Positions 12,414 through 20,316 of a stretch of DNA of 39,017 nucleotides are shown one piece after another. Source of the stretch: a phage. Numbering within the stretch: position 1 is the first letter of the stretch; each line of letters begins with the position of its first letter. Location: the sequence record PZ168289.1, one strand, 5' to 3'. Position numbers and translations under genes: made by a program. Below the pieces are notes generated by a model. The model was not told the DNA's origin and searched no databases. It saw only the letters and a program-made list of their open reading frames with translations.

Positions 12414-15095
12414 TTAAGCGAATGCAAAGTCTGAAGACAAGATGTCTTCGATATTCAGTTTACCTTTCTTCGGAAGCTCAGGCAACTTATCGCGCTGGCT
12501 CTCATGAAGCTGGTATTCAAACTGCTCGTAGAAGTCCAGCAGCACATCGTTGTCTCGGTAGGTCTCGACCATCGTCTCACGGACACCACGGAACAGATAC
12601 TCAGCGTCAGCCGGGATGGTCCCGAAGCTATCGTGAATCACTGCGAATGACATCACGCCATACTTGCGGTGAGTGTGGACTACAGTCTTGCGTAGGTGGC
12701 TACCATCTTGTGAGTGGACGAAGTTCGGGCTAATTCCTGACTCCTGCTTGTGCTTATCCAGCTCCTTCTTCGTGCCTTTGTTGACGGTAGGCTGAAGGTT
12801 GAATGACCCTAAGAACATCAGGTTCAGACGAGTTGTATCCTTCTTGCGGTATTCCTGCCATACCGGGAACCCATCAGGTGTGACCCAGTGTACCGGAAGA
12901 CAAGGCTTCAGGATTTCTCCAGTCTTCTTGTCCTTCACCTCAGCAGCCAGCAGCTTGGCAGCACCTTGAAGCCACTTCATCGCGTCAACCGCAGCAACTA
13001 CTGTCACACTCACAGCTTCCCAAATCATCTTAGCCATGAAGCGAGACGCTTGGCTTGGTTCAGTGAACATAGCGCCAGACCCTGAGTCAATCGCTGGCAT
13101 CACGATGTCCTCGTATACTTGGTCTGCGAAGCCGTACTCTTTCGACCCGTAGGCCAGAGTCATGACCGAACGCTTAGTGACCTTGCGTGACATACCGTAG
13201 GTCAGCCACTGACGGGCCAGCTCTCGTGTCCCCAGCTTGAGACGCTCGGTAATCTCACCAGTTTTCTTGTCCTCGTGAGTTGCCATCTCGTTGTCCGTAC
13301 CGTTAACCAGCAGGACTTTGAGTTCCTCCTCAATGCGGTCAGACACAATGCGATAGATGTCTTGGACCTTACCGGATGGCGTTAGGTTTACTGCATGCCC
13401 ACCGATGTGGTCACGAAGCATCGCGCTGAAGTGCTGAATCCCAGAGCAGGACCCATCGAAAGCTATCGGCAGCGAGCAGGAGTAAGACAAACCGTGGTGC
13501 ATTACGCCAGCATACTCGAAGCAGAACGCTAGGAAGCAGAACGGAGAGTCTAACTTACCCCACCACTCAATGCTGTCCATCGGTGCTTTAGCGGTAGCCA
13601 TGATGTTGTCGTGGTTATCTTCCACCCACTTGATGCGCTCCTCGAAGGTTACTTTATCAATACCCGCACAGTTTGCACCGTGGACCTTCAGCCATTTGAA
13701 ACCATCAGCACCAATAGGCTTACCGACTGCCAGAGTCAGCAGACCCTTTTGCATGTCGTTACCCTGAGGGTTGAACATCGGCACAGCGTAGACGCGACCG
13801 CGCCAGTCCATGTTGTACGGAAACCAGATGGCCTTGAACTGAGAGAACTTGTTCGCTTGGTTAACGATAAAGCTCAGTGACAATCTACGTGACTGCCGGG
13901 CCTTCTCTCGGCGGTAGATACCAGCAGCAGCCTTCTTCCATGCCTTGAGTTCCTCCTCGGTCTCACCCGCATAGTCCTCAGGCTTCAGTGGCTCCATCTG
14001 AGGGATGTCATCAATAGGTGTGTTGTTCAACTTCTCGACCATGTTCACCACGTCCAGCACCTTCTTGTTCACTTTCCAAGGTGTGTTCTGAATGATGTTC
14101 ACAGCGTCGTAGACTTCAGGCATGTATACGTCTTCATAACGTGCCACCGCTGACTTAGACCCTAAGCGAATCAGGGGCAGCGGTCTGCGACCTTTGGCCC
14201 AGTACCCACCGCCTACGACACCAGTCCACGGCTTAGGTGGAACGACGCAAGGCTGGTAGACTGGAGCGATACCCGCAAGGCTGAATCCTCGTTGTGCCAT
14301 CTTCTTGACCCAGAAGTCTGACAGGTGGACCATCTCTACGTCAGCCGCTGCATTGCCAGCACCGTACCGCTTAAGCTCGACCAGTTGTGTTGACTGGATG
14401 ACAATCTCAAGCATCTTGATGCCAACGTGGACAGCCTCTGTAGGACTCCAAGTCCCCCACGCATCTTCCAGTTGGCCTTGCTCCAGCATGGATGCCTCGA
14501 CCGCTTGCATGTAGGCTTTCTTGTAGGACGCCCCGGCCCGCTTATTCAGGTTATCAGCTATCGCCTTCTTGAAGTGCTCTTTCTCCTTGTCACGGATGCG
14601 ACCGAAGCGGATTTCGTCCTCAAGTGTGCGACCTATCGCGGAGGCCATCGGTGTAATCGGTATCCCTTCAGGCTTGACCAGCTTGGAGAGTATGACCTTC
14701 AGTATGATGACCGCAGCAGACTCGCAAGAGATACGCAGAGAGCGGTCCTTGACGGCCTTCTCTTCAGTGCTCAACATGGTGAACGCTACGCTAGGACGAG
14801 AGGTTGACAGCTTCCCGTCTGGGCCTCCATGCCACTCCTTGATGGCTTGCGCAATCTTAGGGACCAGAGTCTGCATCAAAGGCTTGGCTACCTGATTGTC
14901 TGCGAGTTCTCCGCGCTCAGTCTGGCGCTCAAGGTTCTTGATGAAACGTCGCTCGCCTTCAGTGTATGCCTCGTGCTCAAGCTGAAGCTGCTTGACTGCA
15001 AGGTCCTGCCCGTAGTGGTCAGCCAGCAGGTTAAACGGCTCAATGGCGTTTGACACATCAGAGAAGTCGTGTTTTTCAATAGAGATGACGCTCAT
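12414..15095 (-). CDS. single-subunit DNA-directed RNA polymerase (T7 gp1-like)
   Basis: Collinear with T7 RNAP (HDFSD, PFN.LADHYG, motifs around DGSCSGIQHFSA and HDSFGT, C-terminal FAFA); start set to ATG 15095 (MSVISIEKHDF) with AAGGA RBS; track start 15146 is GTG. Confidence 0.97.
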   Translation of the reverse strand: MSVISIEKHDFSDVSNAIEPFNLLADHYGQDLAVKQLQLEHEAYTEGERRFIKNLERQTERGELADNQVAKPLMQTLVPKIAQAIKEWHGGPDGKLSTSRPSVAFTMLSTEEKAVKDRSLRISCESAAVIILKVILSKLVKPEGIPITPMASAIGRTLEDEIRFGRIRDKEKEHFKKAIADNLNKRAGASYKKAYMQAVEASMLEQGQLEDAWGTWSPTEAVHVGIKMLEIVIQSTQLVELKRYGAGNAAADVEMVHLSDFWVKKMAQRGFSLAGIAPVYQPCVVPPKPWTGVVGGGYWAKGRRPLPLIRLGSKSAVARYEDVYMPEVYDAVNIIQNTPWKVNKKVLDVVNMVEKLNNTPIDDIPQMEPLKPEDYAGETEEELKAWKKAAAGIYRREKARQSRRLSLSFIVNQANKFSQFKAIWFPYNMDWRGRVYAVPMFNPQGNDMQKGLLTLAVGKPIGADGFKWLKVHGANCAGIDKVTFEERIKWVEDNHDNIMATAKAPMDSIEWWGKLDSPFCFLAFCFEYAGVMHHGLSYSCSLPIAFDGSCSGIQHFSAMLRDHIGGHAVNLTPSGKVQDIYRIVSDRIEEELKVLLVNGTDNEMATHEDKKTGEITERLKLGTRELARQWLTYGMSRKVTKRSVMTLAYGSKEYGFADQVYEDIVMPAIDSGSGAMFTEPSQASRFMAKMIWEAVSVTVVAAVDAMKWLQGAAKLLAAEVKDKKTGEILKPCLPVHWVTPDGFPVWQEYRKKDTTRLNLMFLGSFNLQPTVNKGTKKELDKHKQESGISPNFVHSQDGSHLRKTVVHTHRKYGVMSFAVIHDSFGTIPADAEYLFRGVRETMVETYRDNDVLLDFYEQFEYQLHESQRDKLPELPKKGKLNIEDILSSDFAFA

Positions 15096-15163
15096 ACTTA
15101 AAGTCCTTGTTATTAGTCTTTCACTTAAGTCTCTTTGGTCTTTCACTTGGAGTCTTAGACCTT

Positions 15164-16082: not shown

Positions 16083-16240
16083 TGTGGTTTATCCTCAGCG
16101 TGTAGACTATCGTGAATACGTTTGCGGCCCTCATAGACCGCTTTCAGGTGACGCATGGTCGCATCGTGGTTTAACTGCCCGGTCTTGACCATAATCCGGG
16201 CGTTGGTGACGTGGTGCTGGCAGAGACCATAAGTTACCAT
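16079..16240 (-). CDS. hypothetical early micro-protein (53 aa)
   Basis: Hand-translated MVTYGLCQHHVTNARIMVKTGQLNHDATMRHLKAVYEGRKRIHDSLHAEDKPQ; ATG overlaps Ocr stop (TGATG); GAGGA upstream. Confidence 0.4.
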   Translation of the reverse strand: MVTYGLCQHHVTNARIMVKTGQLNHDATMRHLKAVYEGRKRIHDSLHAEDKPQ

Positions 16241-16767
16241 CAATCGCAATCCTCAGCAGCCGCAGGGTCGAACACTACGTTATCGTTGATGTCTTCGACC
16301 TGCATGTGAAAACCTTCCTCATAGAGTTCTTTTGCACATGCAGTAGCCTCGTAAAGTGATACAGCTCCCTCAATTATCTCGCCTGTTCTAGTGTCAACTA
16401 CCCAATATTCAGCCTTTTCGTCTTCCTCTTCAGCCTTTTCGTCTGCCTCTTCATCCTCAAACCAGACCACATCCGAGCTATTAGACACGTCGTTATAAAG
16501 CGCCTCATAGATGCGAGCTTGCAGTATACGCGTTACATCCTTGGTATCAGGCATCAGCCCAGAATCTTCGAACTCGTGGTCTATACCATCAGCAGCCATT
16601 ACCGTGAAAATCTCGTGGTAATAGTGCGGAACATTACCGTCTACGACCTCATGCAGCGCATCGCTGTAGTCGTCTCCTTCAGCTATTTCGTCGTACTGAA
16701 TACGCTCGTTAAATGCCTTAACGGTTGCAGCCAGCAGGTCATAGTATGCGTTAGCGTTACGTTCCAT
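16240..16767 (-). CDS. Ocr-like DNA-mimic anti-restriction protein (T7 gp0.3 homolog) with C-terminal extension
   Basis: Residues ~24-95 align with T7 Ocr (YD.I...DD..DA.H...D..VPHYY..IF.VMA..GID.EFEDSGLMPDTKDV.RILQARIYE); very acidic; 175 aa vs 117 in T7. Confidence 0.85.
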   Translation of the reverse strand: MERNANAYYDLLAATVKAFNERIQYDEIAEGDDYSDALHEVVDGNVPHYYHEIFTVMAADGIDHEFEDSGLMPDTKDVTRILQARIYEALYNDVSNSSDVVWFEDEEADEKAEEEDEKAEYWVVDTRTGEIIEGAVSLYEATACAKELYEEGFHMQVEDINDNVVFDPAAAEDCD

Positions 16768-16850: not shown

Positions 16851-17025
16851 ACTGGCAATTGAACGCATGGTCCAAGCACTTATTGAACGCGTCCTGCGCT
16901 TGCTCACGGCTATCCCACTCAGTCTTAGACAATCCGTAGATTATCACATGCTTAGTGCGATACTTATAGTCGTTAGCCGTATACCAGATTACGCCCAGTT
17001 CTTCGTTCATCGCTATGATTTTCAT
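16849..17025 (-). CDS. putative first early ORF (58 aa)
   Basis: Hand-translated MKIIAMNEELGVIWYTANDYKYRTKHVIIYGLSKTEWDSREQAQDAFNKCLDHAFNCQ; weak RBS; flanked by two related hairpin elements. Confidence 0.3.
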   Translation of the reverse strand: MKIIAMNEELGVIWYTANDYKYRTKHVIIYGLSKTEWDSREQAQDAFNKCLDHAFNCQ

Positions 17026-17274: not shown

Positions 17275-17311
17275 TGAATCATACTACTTTAAGTCGGTAC
17301 ATCTTGTCAAC
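17275..17311 (-). promoter_or_regulatory. candidate host sigma70 early promoter 2
   Basis: Minus-strand TTGACA (plus 17305-17310), 18-nt spacer, TAGTAT (plus 17281-17286). Confidence 0.4.
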
Positions 17312-17459: not shown

Positions 17460-18093
17460 TTAAATAATATTGATTGAGCTATCGTCGGCCCCATAGTGTA
17501 AGAGGATATAGTCTTTGACTAACATGTCTTTGACCTTAAGTCTATAGCTGTGTGTCGATTAACTGTAGGCCTTTGACTGTAGGCGTTGGTGTCTTATGGT
17601 TGTGACTTATGGTTGTGACTTATGGTTGTGACTTATGGTTGTGACTTATGGTTGTGACTTATGGTTATACAGATAGAGACTCAGAGGCAGACCAATAGTC
17701 CCTACCTATCGTCTCCACCACCACCGATAGTCATGACCTATCGTTGACTTGAGGTATTTACAGCCGGTCCAACCTTATGATAGACTGGGGTAGGGCCTTT
17801 GGTCTGGACTTAAAGAGGGCCTATGGGGAGACTTGAGGTTCTTGAACTGTGAGATGTGGTCTCAAACTTTTGGTCCAAAACTCATCGTCCCTACTGTAGG
17901 ACACAGCCACTGTAGGTCAAGGACCGTAGGTCAGGCGACACTAGGATAGACCAATAAGTAGGATGACCCTAAGTGAGCTTCTATTAAGGTGTTACCTAAA
18001 GTCCTTGACTACAGTAGCTAAGGTCAGTAGAGTGAGTCTTTATCCACGTACTGACCTTAGGTCTTCCGCTCATGAATCGTTACCATGATTGCG
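17460..18093. repeat. ORF-free genome-terminus region with dispersed short repeats (likely holds the collapsed terminal repeat / concatemer junction)
   Basis: No ORF of any size with an RBS; recurrent short motifs (TAGGTCA/TGACCTA variants, TGTAGG); lies between the last late gene and the early promoters, where the T7 ends and terminal repeat map. Confidence 0.5.
17593..17670. repeat. tandem array of a 13-bp unit CTTATGGTTGTGA (5 perfect copies plus degenerate flanking copies)
   Basis: Perfect copies at 17593-17605, 17606-17618, 17619-17631, 17632-17644, 17645-17657; partial copy 17658-17670; in the ORF-free genome-end region. Confidence 0.9.
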
Positions 18094-18252
18094 TTAATTA
18101 CACTGAGACACCAGAGAACATACGAGAGTCTCGACCCACCCGACCCACTGACTTCCAGCAGTAACGCCAGCAGCAAGTAGAACAGCAGCAAGAAACCTGT
18201 ATGTAGCTCGATTGGTCGCCAGAGCTTTAAGTACAGCTTTGGTCTTTGCCAT
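18094..18252 (-). CDS. gp19.5-like small membrane protein
   Basis: 52-aa ORF hand-translated (MAKTKAVLKALATNRATYRFLAAVLLAAGVTAGSQWVGWVETLVCSLVSQCN); AGGAGG 10 nt upstream; last gene after terminase, downstream of promoter 18433-18455. Confidence 0.5.
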   Translation of the reverse strand: MAKTKAVLKALATNRATYRFLAAVLLAAGVTAGSQWVGWVETLVCSLVSQCN

Positions 18253-18432: not shown

Positions 18433-18455
18433 CTTCCCTATAGTGATAGTTAAGT
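18433..18455 (-). promoter_or_regulatory. phage RNAP promoter (phi-OR-like, after terminase, before gp19.5)
   Basis: CCTATAGTGATAGTTAAG at 18437-18454. Confidence 0.7.
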
Positions 18456-18549: not shown

Positions 18550-20316
18550 CTAGTGGAACGTAACGTATGACCCTAGTCCTAGCTCGTCGTCCGTATCGTG
18601 AGTTACCCTGACCCCATTGTCCCAGAACTCGGTGTGGATGGACTCGAAGCCTTTCCGTGGGTTCTCCATCTGTTCCTCCAGCCACTCCTCAGTGACTTCG
18701 CGTTCGCCTTTGTTGGCATCCTTAGCCATAGACTCAACGAAGAACTGTACACCGATAGCCAGAGCATCAAGTCGGTCATCGTGTGCCAAGGCTCCACGCT
18801 CACGAGAGATACGGGTCATCTGGTAGAAGAGAGAGTAGATAGGGTTACGAACGCCATCCTTATCAGAGGCTGTCTGGTAGTCTTGGACGATAGCAGCAGC
18901 GTTAACGATAAGTCGGTGAGACCCCATGATAGGCTCCAGAACGTCACAGATGCGGAGTTCTTTCTGACCCTTACTCTTCACTTCAGTTACAGCCGCAGGA
19001 TGGATACGGGCCGCTACAGGCTTGAATAGCTCAAGGTACATACCATCACCGAAGTTACCCTCAATGACGTATTCGTTGACCTTCCACTTACGACCAATCT
19101 TAGCCAAGGCTTCCAACGTAGAGTCTTCATAACCGCCACGCATACCACCCACTTCCATAGCGAAGATGTAGCCGTTGAGCTGATACAGTACCGCATAACC
19201 AGTTTCATCCTTACCACGACCACTAGGGTCAATGACCAGAATCTTCTGGGTGTACGAACTGAAGGCAGAACCTACAGTCTGATACGTGTGGTACGAGTCA
19301 CCCATGAGTCCAACGTTAGGAACGTCCTCACGCTTGTTCTGAGGGTTCGGCAACCATTGGTAGACCATTGGACTGGACGCTGGGTCCAAGTCGGCTACGA
19401 TAAGGTCACGGAGCTTCAGAGGGTACTTCTCTGCATCACTCAGGTTAGGGTTAAGCATGAACTGTAGCGCGAAGCCAGCTTTACCGTAAGATAGCTCACG
19501 TTCCTTAAGGTCAGTATCATCGAAGCGTACTTCATCAGTCGGACGCCAGTAGAAGGACTCAGGGTCCTCTTCCAGCTCTGCCTGAAGCATAGGAGCCAGA
19601 CGGTCGCCGTAAGACTGCCAGTCCTTCCTGTCGCGTGGATACCGAGCTGGCCAGATAGTAGTGGTATACCCACGACCTTCCAACTCACGATACAGGGTCA
19701 TCTCGTTCTGAGGAGTGCCCAGATAGATGATTGCACCTCCCGGCTTCAGGATAGCGTCGAACTCTTTCACAAGCTCTGACAGTCGGTCTCGCGCAGCCTG
19801 AGTCGCAGAGTTGTTAGGAACCTCCACGTCATCGGCAATCAGGATGTCAGCACGACTACCAGTCAACTGACCAGTGATGCCAACGGACTTAACCGAAGGT
19901 GAGTGGTCTGGCTTGGCTGGCCCAACGTCGAAGCTGATAACTGCATCTCGCTGTCCCTGCTTAGGTTTGAGTTCCTGAAGCTGAGGCATGAGGTCGATGA
20001 TTCGCTTGATGAATATGGAGTTAGCATCGGCTCGTTCCTTTGAGGCCGACACAATCATGAACTTCAAGTCTGGGTTGTTCCATAGTTTCCAGACCACGAA
20101 ACCACAGGTCAGAAACGACTTGCCAATACCACGGAACGCCTGAAGGATGAAGCGGCGATTATCCCCAGCAGCAAGCTTCTTACACATATCTATCTGGCAG
20201 CGGGTTGGAACCGGAAGGCTAAGAGCTTTCCAGAGAACGAAGATGAAGAACACGAAGTCGTCCCTCATCCTTTGGGTCATTTCTGCCTGTCTTTCCACAG
20301 GTGTTTTCTTAGACAT
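18550..20316 (-). CDS. terminase large subunit (T7 gp19-like)
   Basis: Collinear with T7 gp19 ([81 protein letters not shown]); GGAGGG RBS. Confidence 0.97.

What the first reader, a model, noticed from the sequence alone, without database searches (positions are those of the whole stretch)
17593..17670. Perfect 13-bp tandem array (CTTATGGTTGTGA x5) at the genome end
A perfect five-copy tandem array sits in the ORF-free region between the last late gene and the early promoters, where T7 carries its terminal repeat and short repeat arrays involved in concatemer processing. The unit is unrelated to the T7 ACCTAAAG-type repeats. It could be a packaging/terminase recognition or protein-binding array; copy number may vary between isolates.
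Basis: seen in the sequence. Interest (0 to 1): 0.5.

Follow-up and report, generated by a model that had tools for sequence, protein, structure and literature searches.

The report
T7-type left-end short-repeat block, homogenised
The perfect 13-bp array is real, but it is this K1F-like phage's version of the short-repeat block that T7-family phages carry just inside the left terminal repeat, with one unit recently amplified, so it is an ordinary, fast-evolving feature whose exact function is still unproven.

Summary
There are five perfect head-to-tail copies of CTTATGGTTGTGA at 17593-17657, plus a degenerate sixth unit at 17658-17670. This is far beyond chance.

The window is a complete Kayfunavirus (K1F-like) genome on the minus strand, circularly permuted, with its terminal repeat collapsed to one copy. 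By homology to K1F and EPr2, the physical left end is at 17854(-) and the 180-bp terminal repeat ends at 17675. It is followed at once by ATCTGTA, the counterpart of the T7/T3 concatemer-junction RNA-polymerase pause motif ATCTGTT. The array comes next.

This is the position where T7 and T3 carry their CCTAAAG short repeats, which in T7 also have a 13-bp period. In 29 relatives the same slot holds 4-15 units of about 13-16 bp, each ending in CCATAAG, CCATAGG or CCTACAG. The window's unit is a common single-copy member of that set. Five different units have each been amplified 4-5 times in different phages.

The claim "unrelated to T7 repeats" is wrong.

The function is inferred, not shown. The most likely role is a set of iterated recognition motifs flanking the concatemer cut and pause site, with copy number drifting by slippage. 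Interest is low.

The parts
17593..17657 (-). Five perfect tandem copies of TCACAACCATAAG on the gene strand (CTTATGGTTGTGA on the plus strand). This is the amplified unit of the left short-repeat block.
17658..17670 (-). Degenerate first unit GTATAACCATAAG. Its first 3 nt overlap the junction motif. It is orthologous to the first unit ATCTGTATAACCATAAG of L027, CHX131 and LM33P1.
17668..17674 (-). ATCTGTA, the counterpart of the T7/T3 class II RNA-polymerase pause motif at the concatemer junction (ATCTGTT). It directly abuts the end of the terminal repeat.
   Evidence: PE3-1 annotates 'concatemeric junction' here. Literature.
17675..17854 (-). Direct terminal repeat, 180 bp, present once in the window because the assembly collapsed it. 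The left physical end is TCTCACAGTTCAAGAACC at 17854.
   Evidence: The first 90 nt are identical to the start of K1F. K1F prefix = suffix is 178 bp. EPr2 has an annotated DTR of 179 bp with the same boundaries.
17563..17592 (-). Two further non-amplified units, ACACCAACGCCTACAG and TCAAAGGCCTACAG. These are the conserved promoter-proximal end of the short-repeat block.
17532..17547 (-). Conserved anchor CTATAGACTTAAGGTC that closes the variable block in most relatives examined, exactly or with 1-2 changes.
17894..17930 (-). Right-side short repeats just before the terminal repeat (CCTACGG, then CCTACAG twice, same strand). They correspond to the T7 right-side short repeats.
18435..18446 (-). 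Core of a phage-RNA-polymerase promoter (TCACTATAGGGA) upstream of gp19.5, in the position of T7 phiOR. Transcription from here would cross the junction in concatemers.
   Evidence: T7 phiOR annotation.
18094..18252 (-). gp19.5-like small ORF (52 aa), the last gene before the right end.
   Evidence: Reading. PE3-1 and BUCT788 annotate gp19.5 at the homologous place.
17281..17310 (-). Best sigma-70-like early promoter match (TTGACA, 18 nt, TAGTAT; 10 of 12), downstream of the block.

Best explanation
The array is the left short-repeat block of a K1F-like (Kayfunavirus) T7-family phage. This is the run of direct, same-strand units of roughly 13-16 bp that begins right after the terminal repeat and the ATCTGT(T/A) concatemer-junction pause motif. 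From memory, Dunn and Studier (1983) called it SRL in T7.

In this genome one ordinary member of the unit set, TCACAACCATAAG, has been amplified to five identical copies, and the units normally lying between have been lost. The likely causes are replication slippage or unequal recombination between near-identical units.

What is shown: the position, the homology of the architecture, the conserved heptamer cores, and the turnover and copy-number variation.

What is inferred: the heptamer cores (CCATAAG / CCTACAG, against CCTAAAG in T7) act as iterated, individually weak recognition motifs. They would serve the maturation machinery that assembles at the junction, namely paused phage RNA polymerase with lysozyme and terminase gp18/gp19. 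Function would then depend on having several cores on the correct strand beside the cut or pause site, not on unit identity, number or helical phasing. That would explain why the block can be remodelled freely.

I put about 0.9 on the identification and about 0.35 on the mechanism.
For: Position: the K1F record starts with the window's minus-strand sequence at 17854. Both the K1F and EPr2 repeats end at ...GAGTCTC(T) followed by ATCTGTA.

Same architecture in T7 and T3: the terminal repeat ends ...GTGTCCCT, then ATCTGTT, then CCTAAAG-type units. T7 nt 161-345 has its dominant autocorrelation at lag 13.

Relatives: in 24 distinct arrays plus 5 more, the slot is 107-271 bp (measured on the 24) and holds 4-15 units ending in CCATAAG, CCATAGG or CCTACAG. 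CCTACAG and ATCTGTA are present in 24 of 24. TCACAACCATAAG is a single-copy unit in PE3-1, vB_EcoP_F, TH16, BUCT788, BDX03P1, CHX131 and L027.

Constraint on cores: in orthologous proximal units the core columns are more conserved than the spacer columns. Cores on the gene strand number 17 in 1.55 kb around the junction against 3.3 expected (P about 9e-8, or 2e-4 after removing the 5 extra copies), with 7 on the other strand.

Turnover: five different units have been amplified 4-5 times in five phages. Examples are LNA3 with 5 copies against T147P5 with 2, and L010 with 5 against 101118UKE1 with 2, with flanks 91-99% identical. A relative 96-97% identical to the window has at least 6 copies.

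Against: No experiment shows that any protein binds these repeats or that they are needed for packaging. This holds here and in everything I could retrieve (searches found nothing on their function). [quoted passage not shown]

Unit length varies from 13 to 16 bp and core number from 4 to 15, so there is no fixed phasing. That is unusual for cooperative protein arrays and is equally what a neutral repeat would show.

Core conservation among units could partly reflect common descent by duplication rather than selection.

The terminal-repeat boundaries in the window are inferred by homology, not measured.
Confidence: 0.55

Rival explanations
1. The array is a neutral, slippage-prone minisatellite. 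The block is tolerated junk next to the terminal repeat, and the array has no function of its own. The cores look conserved only because all units descend from one another by duplication.
For: The five copies are perfectly identical, so the expansion is very recent. Block length (107-271 bp), unit length and core number vary widely. Different units are amplified in different phages and differ between genomes with 91-99% identical flanks. There is no structure, no ORF and no RNA family.
Against: The same kind of block sits in the same slot, on the same strand, in T7, T3 and all 29 Kayfunavirus genomes examined, although surrounding non-coding sequence has diverged. Individual units are nearly identical between T7 and Kayfunavirus (CCAACACCTAAAG against CCAACACCTACAG). 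Cores vary less than spacers in orthologous units. Similar cores also flank the other side of the terminal repeat. No genome examined lacks the block.
Confidence: 0.25
2. The copy number is an assembly artefact. The array exists, but five copies is a collapsed or expanded estimate from short reads.
For: The closest independent assembly (IMG/VR 3300045988_000061) begins and ends inside this array, so the assembler could not resolve it. Across five independent amplifications the maximum is always 4-5 copies (74-93 bp of periodicity), which could be a read-length or k-mer ceiling. The window's terminal repeat is already collapsed.
Against: A 78-bp array is spanned by ordinary 100-150 nt reads. 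In the window it has unique sequence on both sides. The relative shows at least 6 copies, so arrays of this size do occur.
Confidence: 0.1
3. The array is part of a leftward host-polymerase promoter, the counterpart of T7 A0. The array unit supplies -10-like hexamers (TATGGT) for transcription towards the genome end.
For: There is a sigma-70-like match on the plus strand: TTGACT at 17573-17578, a 16-nt spacer, then TATGGT at 17595-17600 (9 of 12). T7 has a leftward E. coli promoter A0 annotated at nt 224, inside its short-repeat block. A preprint reports that the T7 junction terminator acts as an E. coli promoter in some contexts.
Against: The match is weak, with 6 such sites found against 2.6 expected by chance in the region. 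Only the first copy has a -35 at a workable distance, so five copies are not explained. In T3 the A0 promoter is annotated inside the terminal repeat, not in the short repeats. The relatives' amplified units (CCTACAG type) give no TATGGT.
Confidence: 0.05
4. The array acts at the RNA level. The C/A-rich, G-poor, unstructured transcript made when the phage polymerase crosses the junction would be a loading platform, for example Rho-like or for a phage factor, that acts on the paused polymerase.
For: The gene-strand unit has 4 C and 1 G in 13 nt. The transcript has no structure (z = +0.5). It begins at the predicted pause site, 6-8 nt after the motif.
Against: This is purely compositional. There is no precedent that I could find, and Rho is not known to be involved in T7 maturation. 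The same composition is expected from the DNA-level core motifs.
Confidence: 0.05

Closest known systems
T7 left short-repeat region (SRL, about nt 175-340; name and coordinates recalled from Dunn and Studier 1983, not retrievable here) and its T3 counterpart
   Same: It starts directly after the direct terminal repeat and the ATCTGT(T/A) junction motif. It consists of direct repeats on the gene strand that are A/C-rich and non-coding. T7 has the same 13-bp period, and T7 itself has a perfect tandem pair ACCAGACCTAAAG x2. The 7-8 nt core is closely related (ACCATAAG or ACCTACAG against ACCTAAAG). It is followed by the early promoters.
   Different: Here one unit is homogenised to five identical copies, where T7 has a dozen diverged units. 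The core is CCATAAG rather than CCTAAAG. The junction motif is ATCTGTA rather than ATCTGTT. No clear phiOL-type promoter follows.
Short-repeat blocks of other Kayfunavirus genomes (K1F, PE3-1, LM33P1, ST31, vB_EcoP_F and others)
   Same: The flanks are orthologous: terminal repeat plus ATCTGTA upstream, and ACACCAAC..CCTACAG..TTAATAGACACA..CTATAGACTTAAGGTC downstream. The unit vocabulary is the same. TCACAACCATAAG is present as a single unit in many of them. Other genomes show analogous 4-5-copy amplifications (PE3-1 16-mer, L010 15-mer, LNA3 16-mer, L009 16-mer).
   Different: Which unit is amplified differs. The window has lost all the CCTACAG-type middle units that most relatives keep.
Terminase recognition arrays next to cut sites in other phages (lambda cosB R sites, SPP1 pacL/pacR boxes; recalled, not tested)
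   Same: They are iterated short motifs flanking the site where concatemers are cut. This is the kind of mechanism proposed here.
   Different: Binding of the small terminase is demonstrated in those systems and not here. Those sites have fixed number and spacing, whereas this block is highly variable.

Membership tests
T7-family left short-repeat block (SRL type) | Lies immediately inside the left direct terminal repeat | tested here: met
   Window(-) 17854 onward matches the start of K1F. The K1F and EPr2 repeats (178/179 bp) end at ...GAGTCTC(T), and the block starts 1-4 nt later. The ends are inferred by homology, not measured for this genome.
T7-family left short-repeat block (SRL type) | Preceded by the concatemer-junction class II pause motif at the repeat boundary | tested here: met
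   ATCTGTA lies at 17674-17668. T7 and T3 have ATCTGTT in the same place. There is one base difference at position 7, shared by all 29 Kayfunavirus junctions. Pausing itself was not tested.
T7-family left short-repeat block (SRL type) | Direct, same-strand repeats of about 12-16 bp sharing a CCTAAAG-like core | tested here: met
   The block has six CCATAAG and two CCTACAG cores, all on the gene strand. The period is 13, as in T7 nt 161-345. CCATAAG differs from CCTAAAG at 2 positions and CCTACAG at 1.
T7-family left short-repeat block (SRL type) | Non-coding, upstream of the early promoters and the first early gene | tested here: met
   No ORF of 20 aa or more spans the array. A sigma-70-like promoter lies at 17310-17281(-) and the first early ATG is near 17025(-).
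T7-family left short-repeat block (SRL type) | A counterpart block on the other side of the terminal repeat (right short repeats) | tested here: met
   CCTACGG, CCTACAG and CCTACAG lie at 17930-17894(-), just before the repeat. The T7 right end shows CCTAAGG/CCTAAAG units in the same place. The window has only three units there.
Terminase (small subunit) binding array | Sequence-specific binding by the small terminase and a requirement for packaging | not testable with these tools
   This needs EMSA or footprinting and deletion genetics. No literature evidence was found.
Variable-number tandem repeat generated by slippage | Perfect head-to-tail copies, with copy number differing between close relatives | tested here: met
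   The window has 5 copies and a 96-97% identical relative has at least 6. CHX131 and L027 have 1 copy in the same place. Analogous differences of 5 against 2 copies occur for other units.
Replication-origin iterons | Repeats bound by a dedicated initiator, next to an AT-rich unwinding element | tested here: inconclusive
   From established knowledge of T7, T7-family origins are phage promoter plus AT-rich region with no iteron-binding initiator. No strong phiOL-type promoter follows the block. An AT-rich patch exists about 110 nt downstream. This was not pursued further.
Structured RNA or known RNA family | Significant fold or a covariance-model match | tested here: not met
   The only Rfam match is a chance snoRNA hit outside the array (E = 0.69). 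Fold z-scores are +0.5 for both strands.

The most novel reading that the evidence does not exclude
The short-repeat block could be a rapidly evolving specificity element. The identity and number of cores next to the pause or cut site would tune, or make lineage-specific, how efficiently the phage's own polymerase-lysozyme-terminase complex matures concatemers. Unit amplifications such as this 5x array would then be adaptive changes, for example favouring self-packaging over packaging of a co-infecting relative's DNA, rather than drift.
Probability: 0.08. Interest if true: 0.55.

Novelty: new member of a known kind. Interest (0 to 1): 0.2.

Why it matters
It matters mostly as annotation and quality control. 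The result fixes the physical ends, the collapsed terminal repeat and the junction motif of this genome. It also flags an array that breaks or confuses short-read assemblies of these phages.

Comparatively, it shows that the T7-type short-repeat blocks turn over by amplification and loss of whole units while keeping a heptamer core on one strand. That is indirect evidence that the cores are functional. It also provides a natural allelic series (1, 2, 5 and at least 6 copies, with different units) that could be used to test a question left open since the T7 sequence was published: what the short repeats beside the terminal repeat do.

Tried and rejected
- **Coding.** No ORF of 20 aa or more spans the array. 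A 13-bp unit shifts frame at every copy, and both strands carry stops (TAA and TGA) in the unit.
- **Known RNA family.** Nothing matched.
- **Hairpin or structured single strand, RNA or DNA.** Neither strand folds better than shuffles.
- **T7-type primase sites.** The GTC at unit junctions would template ACUU or ACUG primers, not the favoured ACCC, ACCA or ACAC (established T7 knowledge). GTC after the core is also not conserved in T7. Rejected.
- **CRISPR-like array.** There are no spacers.
- **Literature on the function of the T7 short repeats.** Five full-text searches and one sequence-string search found nothing specific. The K1F genome paper could not be opened under the PMC id I guessed from memory, which may be wrong. 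The primary T7 papers (Dunn and Studier 1983; Chung and Hinkle 1990; Zhang and Studier 2004) are not in the library, so statements about them rest on memory or on secondary citations.
- **Metagenome scan.** The scan with the 16-mer anchor returned mostly chance hits. Only two of its loci parsed as further Kayfunavirus arrays (L027, L094).
- **Exact match in the phage collection.** No record identical to the window was found; the best full-length match over the junction region is 94%.

Full report
**1. Observation**

The plus strand at 17593-17657 reads CTTATGGTTGTGA five times without a mismatch. A sixth unit, CTTATGGTTATAC, follows at 17658-17670. Tandem Repeats Finder reports 17589-17666, period 13, 6.0 copies, 98% matches, score 149. 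That is the highest-scoring array in the window. The longest run of bases equal to the base 13 positions on is 61. In 200 shuffles the maximum was 11, and no other lag from 5 to 30 exceeds 16 apart from the harmonic at 26. The array is real and not a chance event.

**2. Context**

All long ORFs are on the minus strand. They include a 588-aa ORF at 18550-20316 that relatives annotate as large terminase, and a 910-aa ORF at 12414-15146 of the size and position expected for the phage RNA polymerase (not checked by homology). The junction region is 90-94% identical to many Kayfunavirus (K1F-like, Studiervirinae) genomes. So the window is a complete T7-family genome, reverse-complemented and circularly permuted.

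Read on the gene strand, the order is:
- end of gp19
- a phage-promoter core TCACTATAGGGA at 18446-18435, in the place of T7 phiOR
- a gp19.5-like ORF at 18252-18094
- about 240 nt of non-coding sequence
- TCTCACAGTTCAAGAACC... starting at 17854

The K1F record starts with exactly this sequence. The first 90 nt are identical. K1F's start and end share 178 bp (a paper cites 179 bp for K1F). The EPr2 record annotates a 179-bp "DTR (short)" with the same boundaries.

By homology, the window's terminal repeat is 17854-17675(-), 180 bp. It is present only once, so the assembly collapsed the two copies.

**3. The junction motif**

In K1F, EPr2, PE3-1 and the window the repeat ends ...CTGAGTCTCT and is followed at once by ATCTGTA. 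In T7 and T3 the repeat ends ...GTGTCCCT and is followed by ATCTGTT.

ATCTGTT is the class II pause/termination signal of T7 RNA polymerase. [quoted passage not shown] A paper citing Zhang and Studier (2004) states that the polymerase-lysozyme complex pauses there and interacts with gp18/gp19 to start maturation and packaging. PE3-1 annotates "concatemeric junction" on this motif.

In the window the motif is at 17674-17668. The degenerate first repeat unit (17670-17658) overlaps it by 3 nt. The perfect copies occupy genome positions 198-262 counted from the inferred left end.

**4. What sits in this slot in relatives**

I extracted the sequence between ATCTGT and the conserved downstream anchor CTATAGACTTAAGGTC (17547-17532 in the window). 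This gave 24 distinct Kayfunavirus arrays, plus 5 more with slightly different anchors.

Across the 24 anchored arrays the slot is 107-271 bp long. It is made of 4-15 direct units of about 13-16 bp. Each unit ends in CCATAAG, CCATAGG or CCTACAG and usually starts with TC. CCTACAG and ATCTGTA occur in 24 of 24, and CCATAAG in 21 of 24.

The window's unit TCACAACCATAAG is a common single-copy member of this set:
- It is the last unit before ACACCAAC... in PE3-1, vB_EcoP_F, TH16, BUCT788 and BDX03P1.
- It is the second unit after ATCTGTATAACCATAAG in L027 and CHX131.

A simple path to the window's state has two steps. First, recombination between two such copies deletes the middle units. Second, slippage expands the remaining copy to five. 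This path is an inference.

**5. Relation to T7**

T7 nt 161-345 reads ATCTGTTACAG TCTCCTAAAG TATCCTCCTAAAG TCACCTCCTAACG TCCATCCTAAAG CCAACACCTAAAG CCTACACCTAAAG ... ACCAGACCTAAAG ACCAGACCTAAAG ACACTACATAAAG ACCAGACCTAAAG. Its strongest autocorrelation is at lag 13 (0.60).

The T7 block is therefore also a 13-bp-period, same-strand, A/C-rich array, and it even contains a perfect tandem pair. Individual units are nearly the same in the two genera: T7 CCAACACCTAAAG and CCTACACCTAAAG against Kayfunavirus CCAACACCTACAG and CCTACACCTACAG. T3 shows the same arrangement.

The array is the local form of the same element. From memory, Dunn and Studier (1983) called it SRL, with a counterpart SRR on the right side. 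I could not retrieve that paper.

The right-side counterpart is visible in T7. The window has three cores there, at 17930-17894.

**6. Signs of constraint and of turnover**

*Constraint*
- The element is in the same slot and on the same strand in three genera.
- In an alignment of the orthologous promoter-proximal units, core columns are more conserved than spacer columns.
- Gene-strand cores number 17 in the 1.55 kb around the junction against 3.3 expected from the rest of the genome (P about 9e-8, or 2e-4 without the five extra copies). There are 7 on the other strand.

*Turnover*
- Five different units (13, 15, 16, 16 and 16 nt) have been amplified to 4-5 perfect copies in five different phages.
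- LNA3 has 5 copies against 2 in T147P5, and L010 has 5 against 2 in 101118UKE1, with flanks 91-99% identical.
- The closest relative of the window is an IMG/VR contig 96-97% identical over 14 kb. It has the same unit in at least 6 copies, but the contig begins and ends inside the array, so its number is unresolved.

**7. What it is not**

- No ORF of 20 aa or more spans it.
- No Rfam family matches.
- Neither strand folds better than shuffles.
- The GTC at unit junctions does not make favoured T7 primase sites, and it is not conserved in T7.
- A weak leftward sigma-70-like match uses the unit's TATGGT as a -10. T7 has a leftward promoter A0 annotated inside its block. However, the match is at chance level and cannot explain five copies.

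**8. Mechanism**

*Shown:* position, architecture, core conservation and unit turnover.

*Inferred:* the cores are iterated, individually weak recognition motifs beside the site where the polymerase pauses and the concatemer is cut. What matters would be several cores in the right orientation, not their exact number, spacing or spacer sequence.

I rate the identification at about 0.9 and this mechanism at about 0.35. The main rival is a functionless slippage-prone repeat, at about 0.25. No retrievable paper reports a test of the function. [quoted passage not shown]

**9. Verdict**

The array is a real, correctly located, ordinary feature. It is a new, homogenised member of a kind of element known since the T7 sequence. 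Interest is low. Its main values are for annotation (ends, collapsed repeat, junction motif), as an assembly hazard, and as part of a natural series for testing what these repeats do.

Noticed in passing
window 17668-17674 (-); loci L001-L003, L096-L111: All 29 Kayfunavirus junctions read ATCTGTA, while T7 and T3 read ATCTGTT. The T7 class II signal is described as intolerant of any base change, so K1F-type RNA polymerases may have a shifted pause specificity, or position 7 may matter less than stated.
   Followed up: partly
L005 13921-13975 and L006 1-92 (IMG/VR UViG_3300045988_000061): A metagenome contig 96-97% identical to the window begins and ends inside the same 13-mer array. It has at least 6 copies, and the two ends overlap rather than abut. 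The array evidently breaks short-read assembly graphs.
   Followed up: yes
L002, L009, L010, L110, window: Five independent amplifications of five different units reach 4-5 perfect copies and never more (74-93 bp of periodicity). This could be a biological ceiling or a read-length/k-mer ceiling of assemblers.
   Followed up: no
L001 (OM256482 EPr2) 1-679: The record carries the 179-bp terminal repeat at 1-179 and again at 501-679, with 321 bp of right-end sequence (the 3' part of gp19.5 and the right short repeats) between them. This is an odd record layout, probably a permutation artefact.
   Followed up: no
L003 / L112 (K1F NC_007456): The exact prefix = suffix of the K1F record is 178 bp, while a paper cites 179 bp for the K1F terminal repeat.
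   Followed up: partly
window 18018-18029 and 18049-18060: A perfect 12-nt inverted repeat (CTAAGGTCAGTA / TACTGACCTTAG, 19-nt loop) lies about 35 nt downstream of the gp19.5 stop codon (18094-18096), between the last gene and the right short repeats. It may be a terminator, or relate to the hairpin intermediate proposed for T7 concatemer processing.
   Followed up: no
window 17573-17600 (+): A leftward sigma-70-like match (TTGACT, 16 nt, TATGGT) uses the first array unit as its -10. T7 has a leftward promoter A0 annotated inside its own short-repeat block.
   Followed up: partly
window 17675-17854: Only one copy of the terminal repeat is present, so the linear packaged genome should be about 39,197 bp rather than 39,017.
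   Followed up: yes
window 16408-16457: A 21-bp tandem repeat (2.4 copies, 93% matches) lies inside the early-region ORF 16240-16767 (-). It is in-frame, being a multiple of 3.
   Followed up: no
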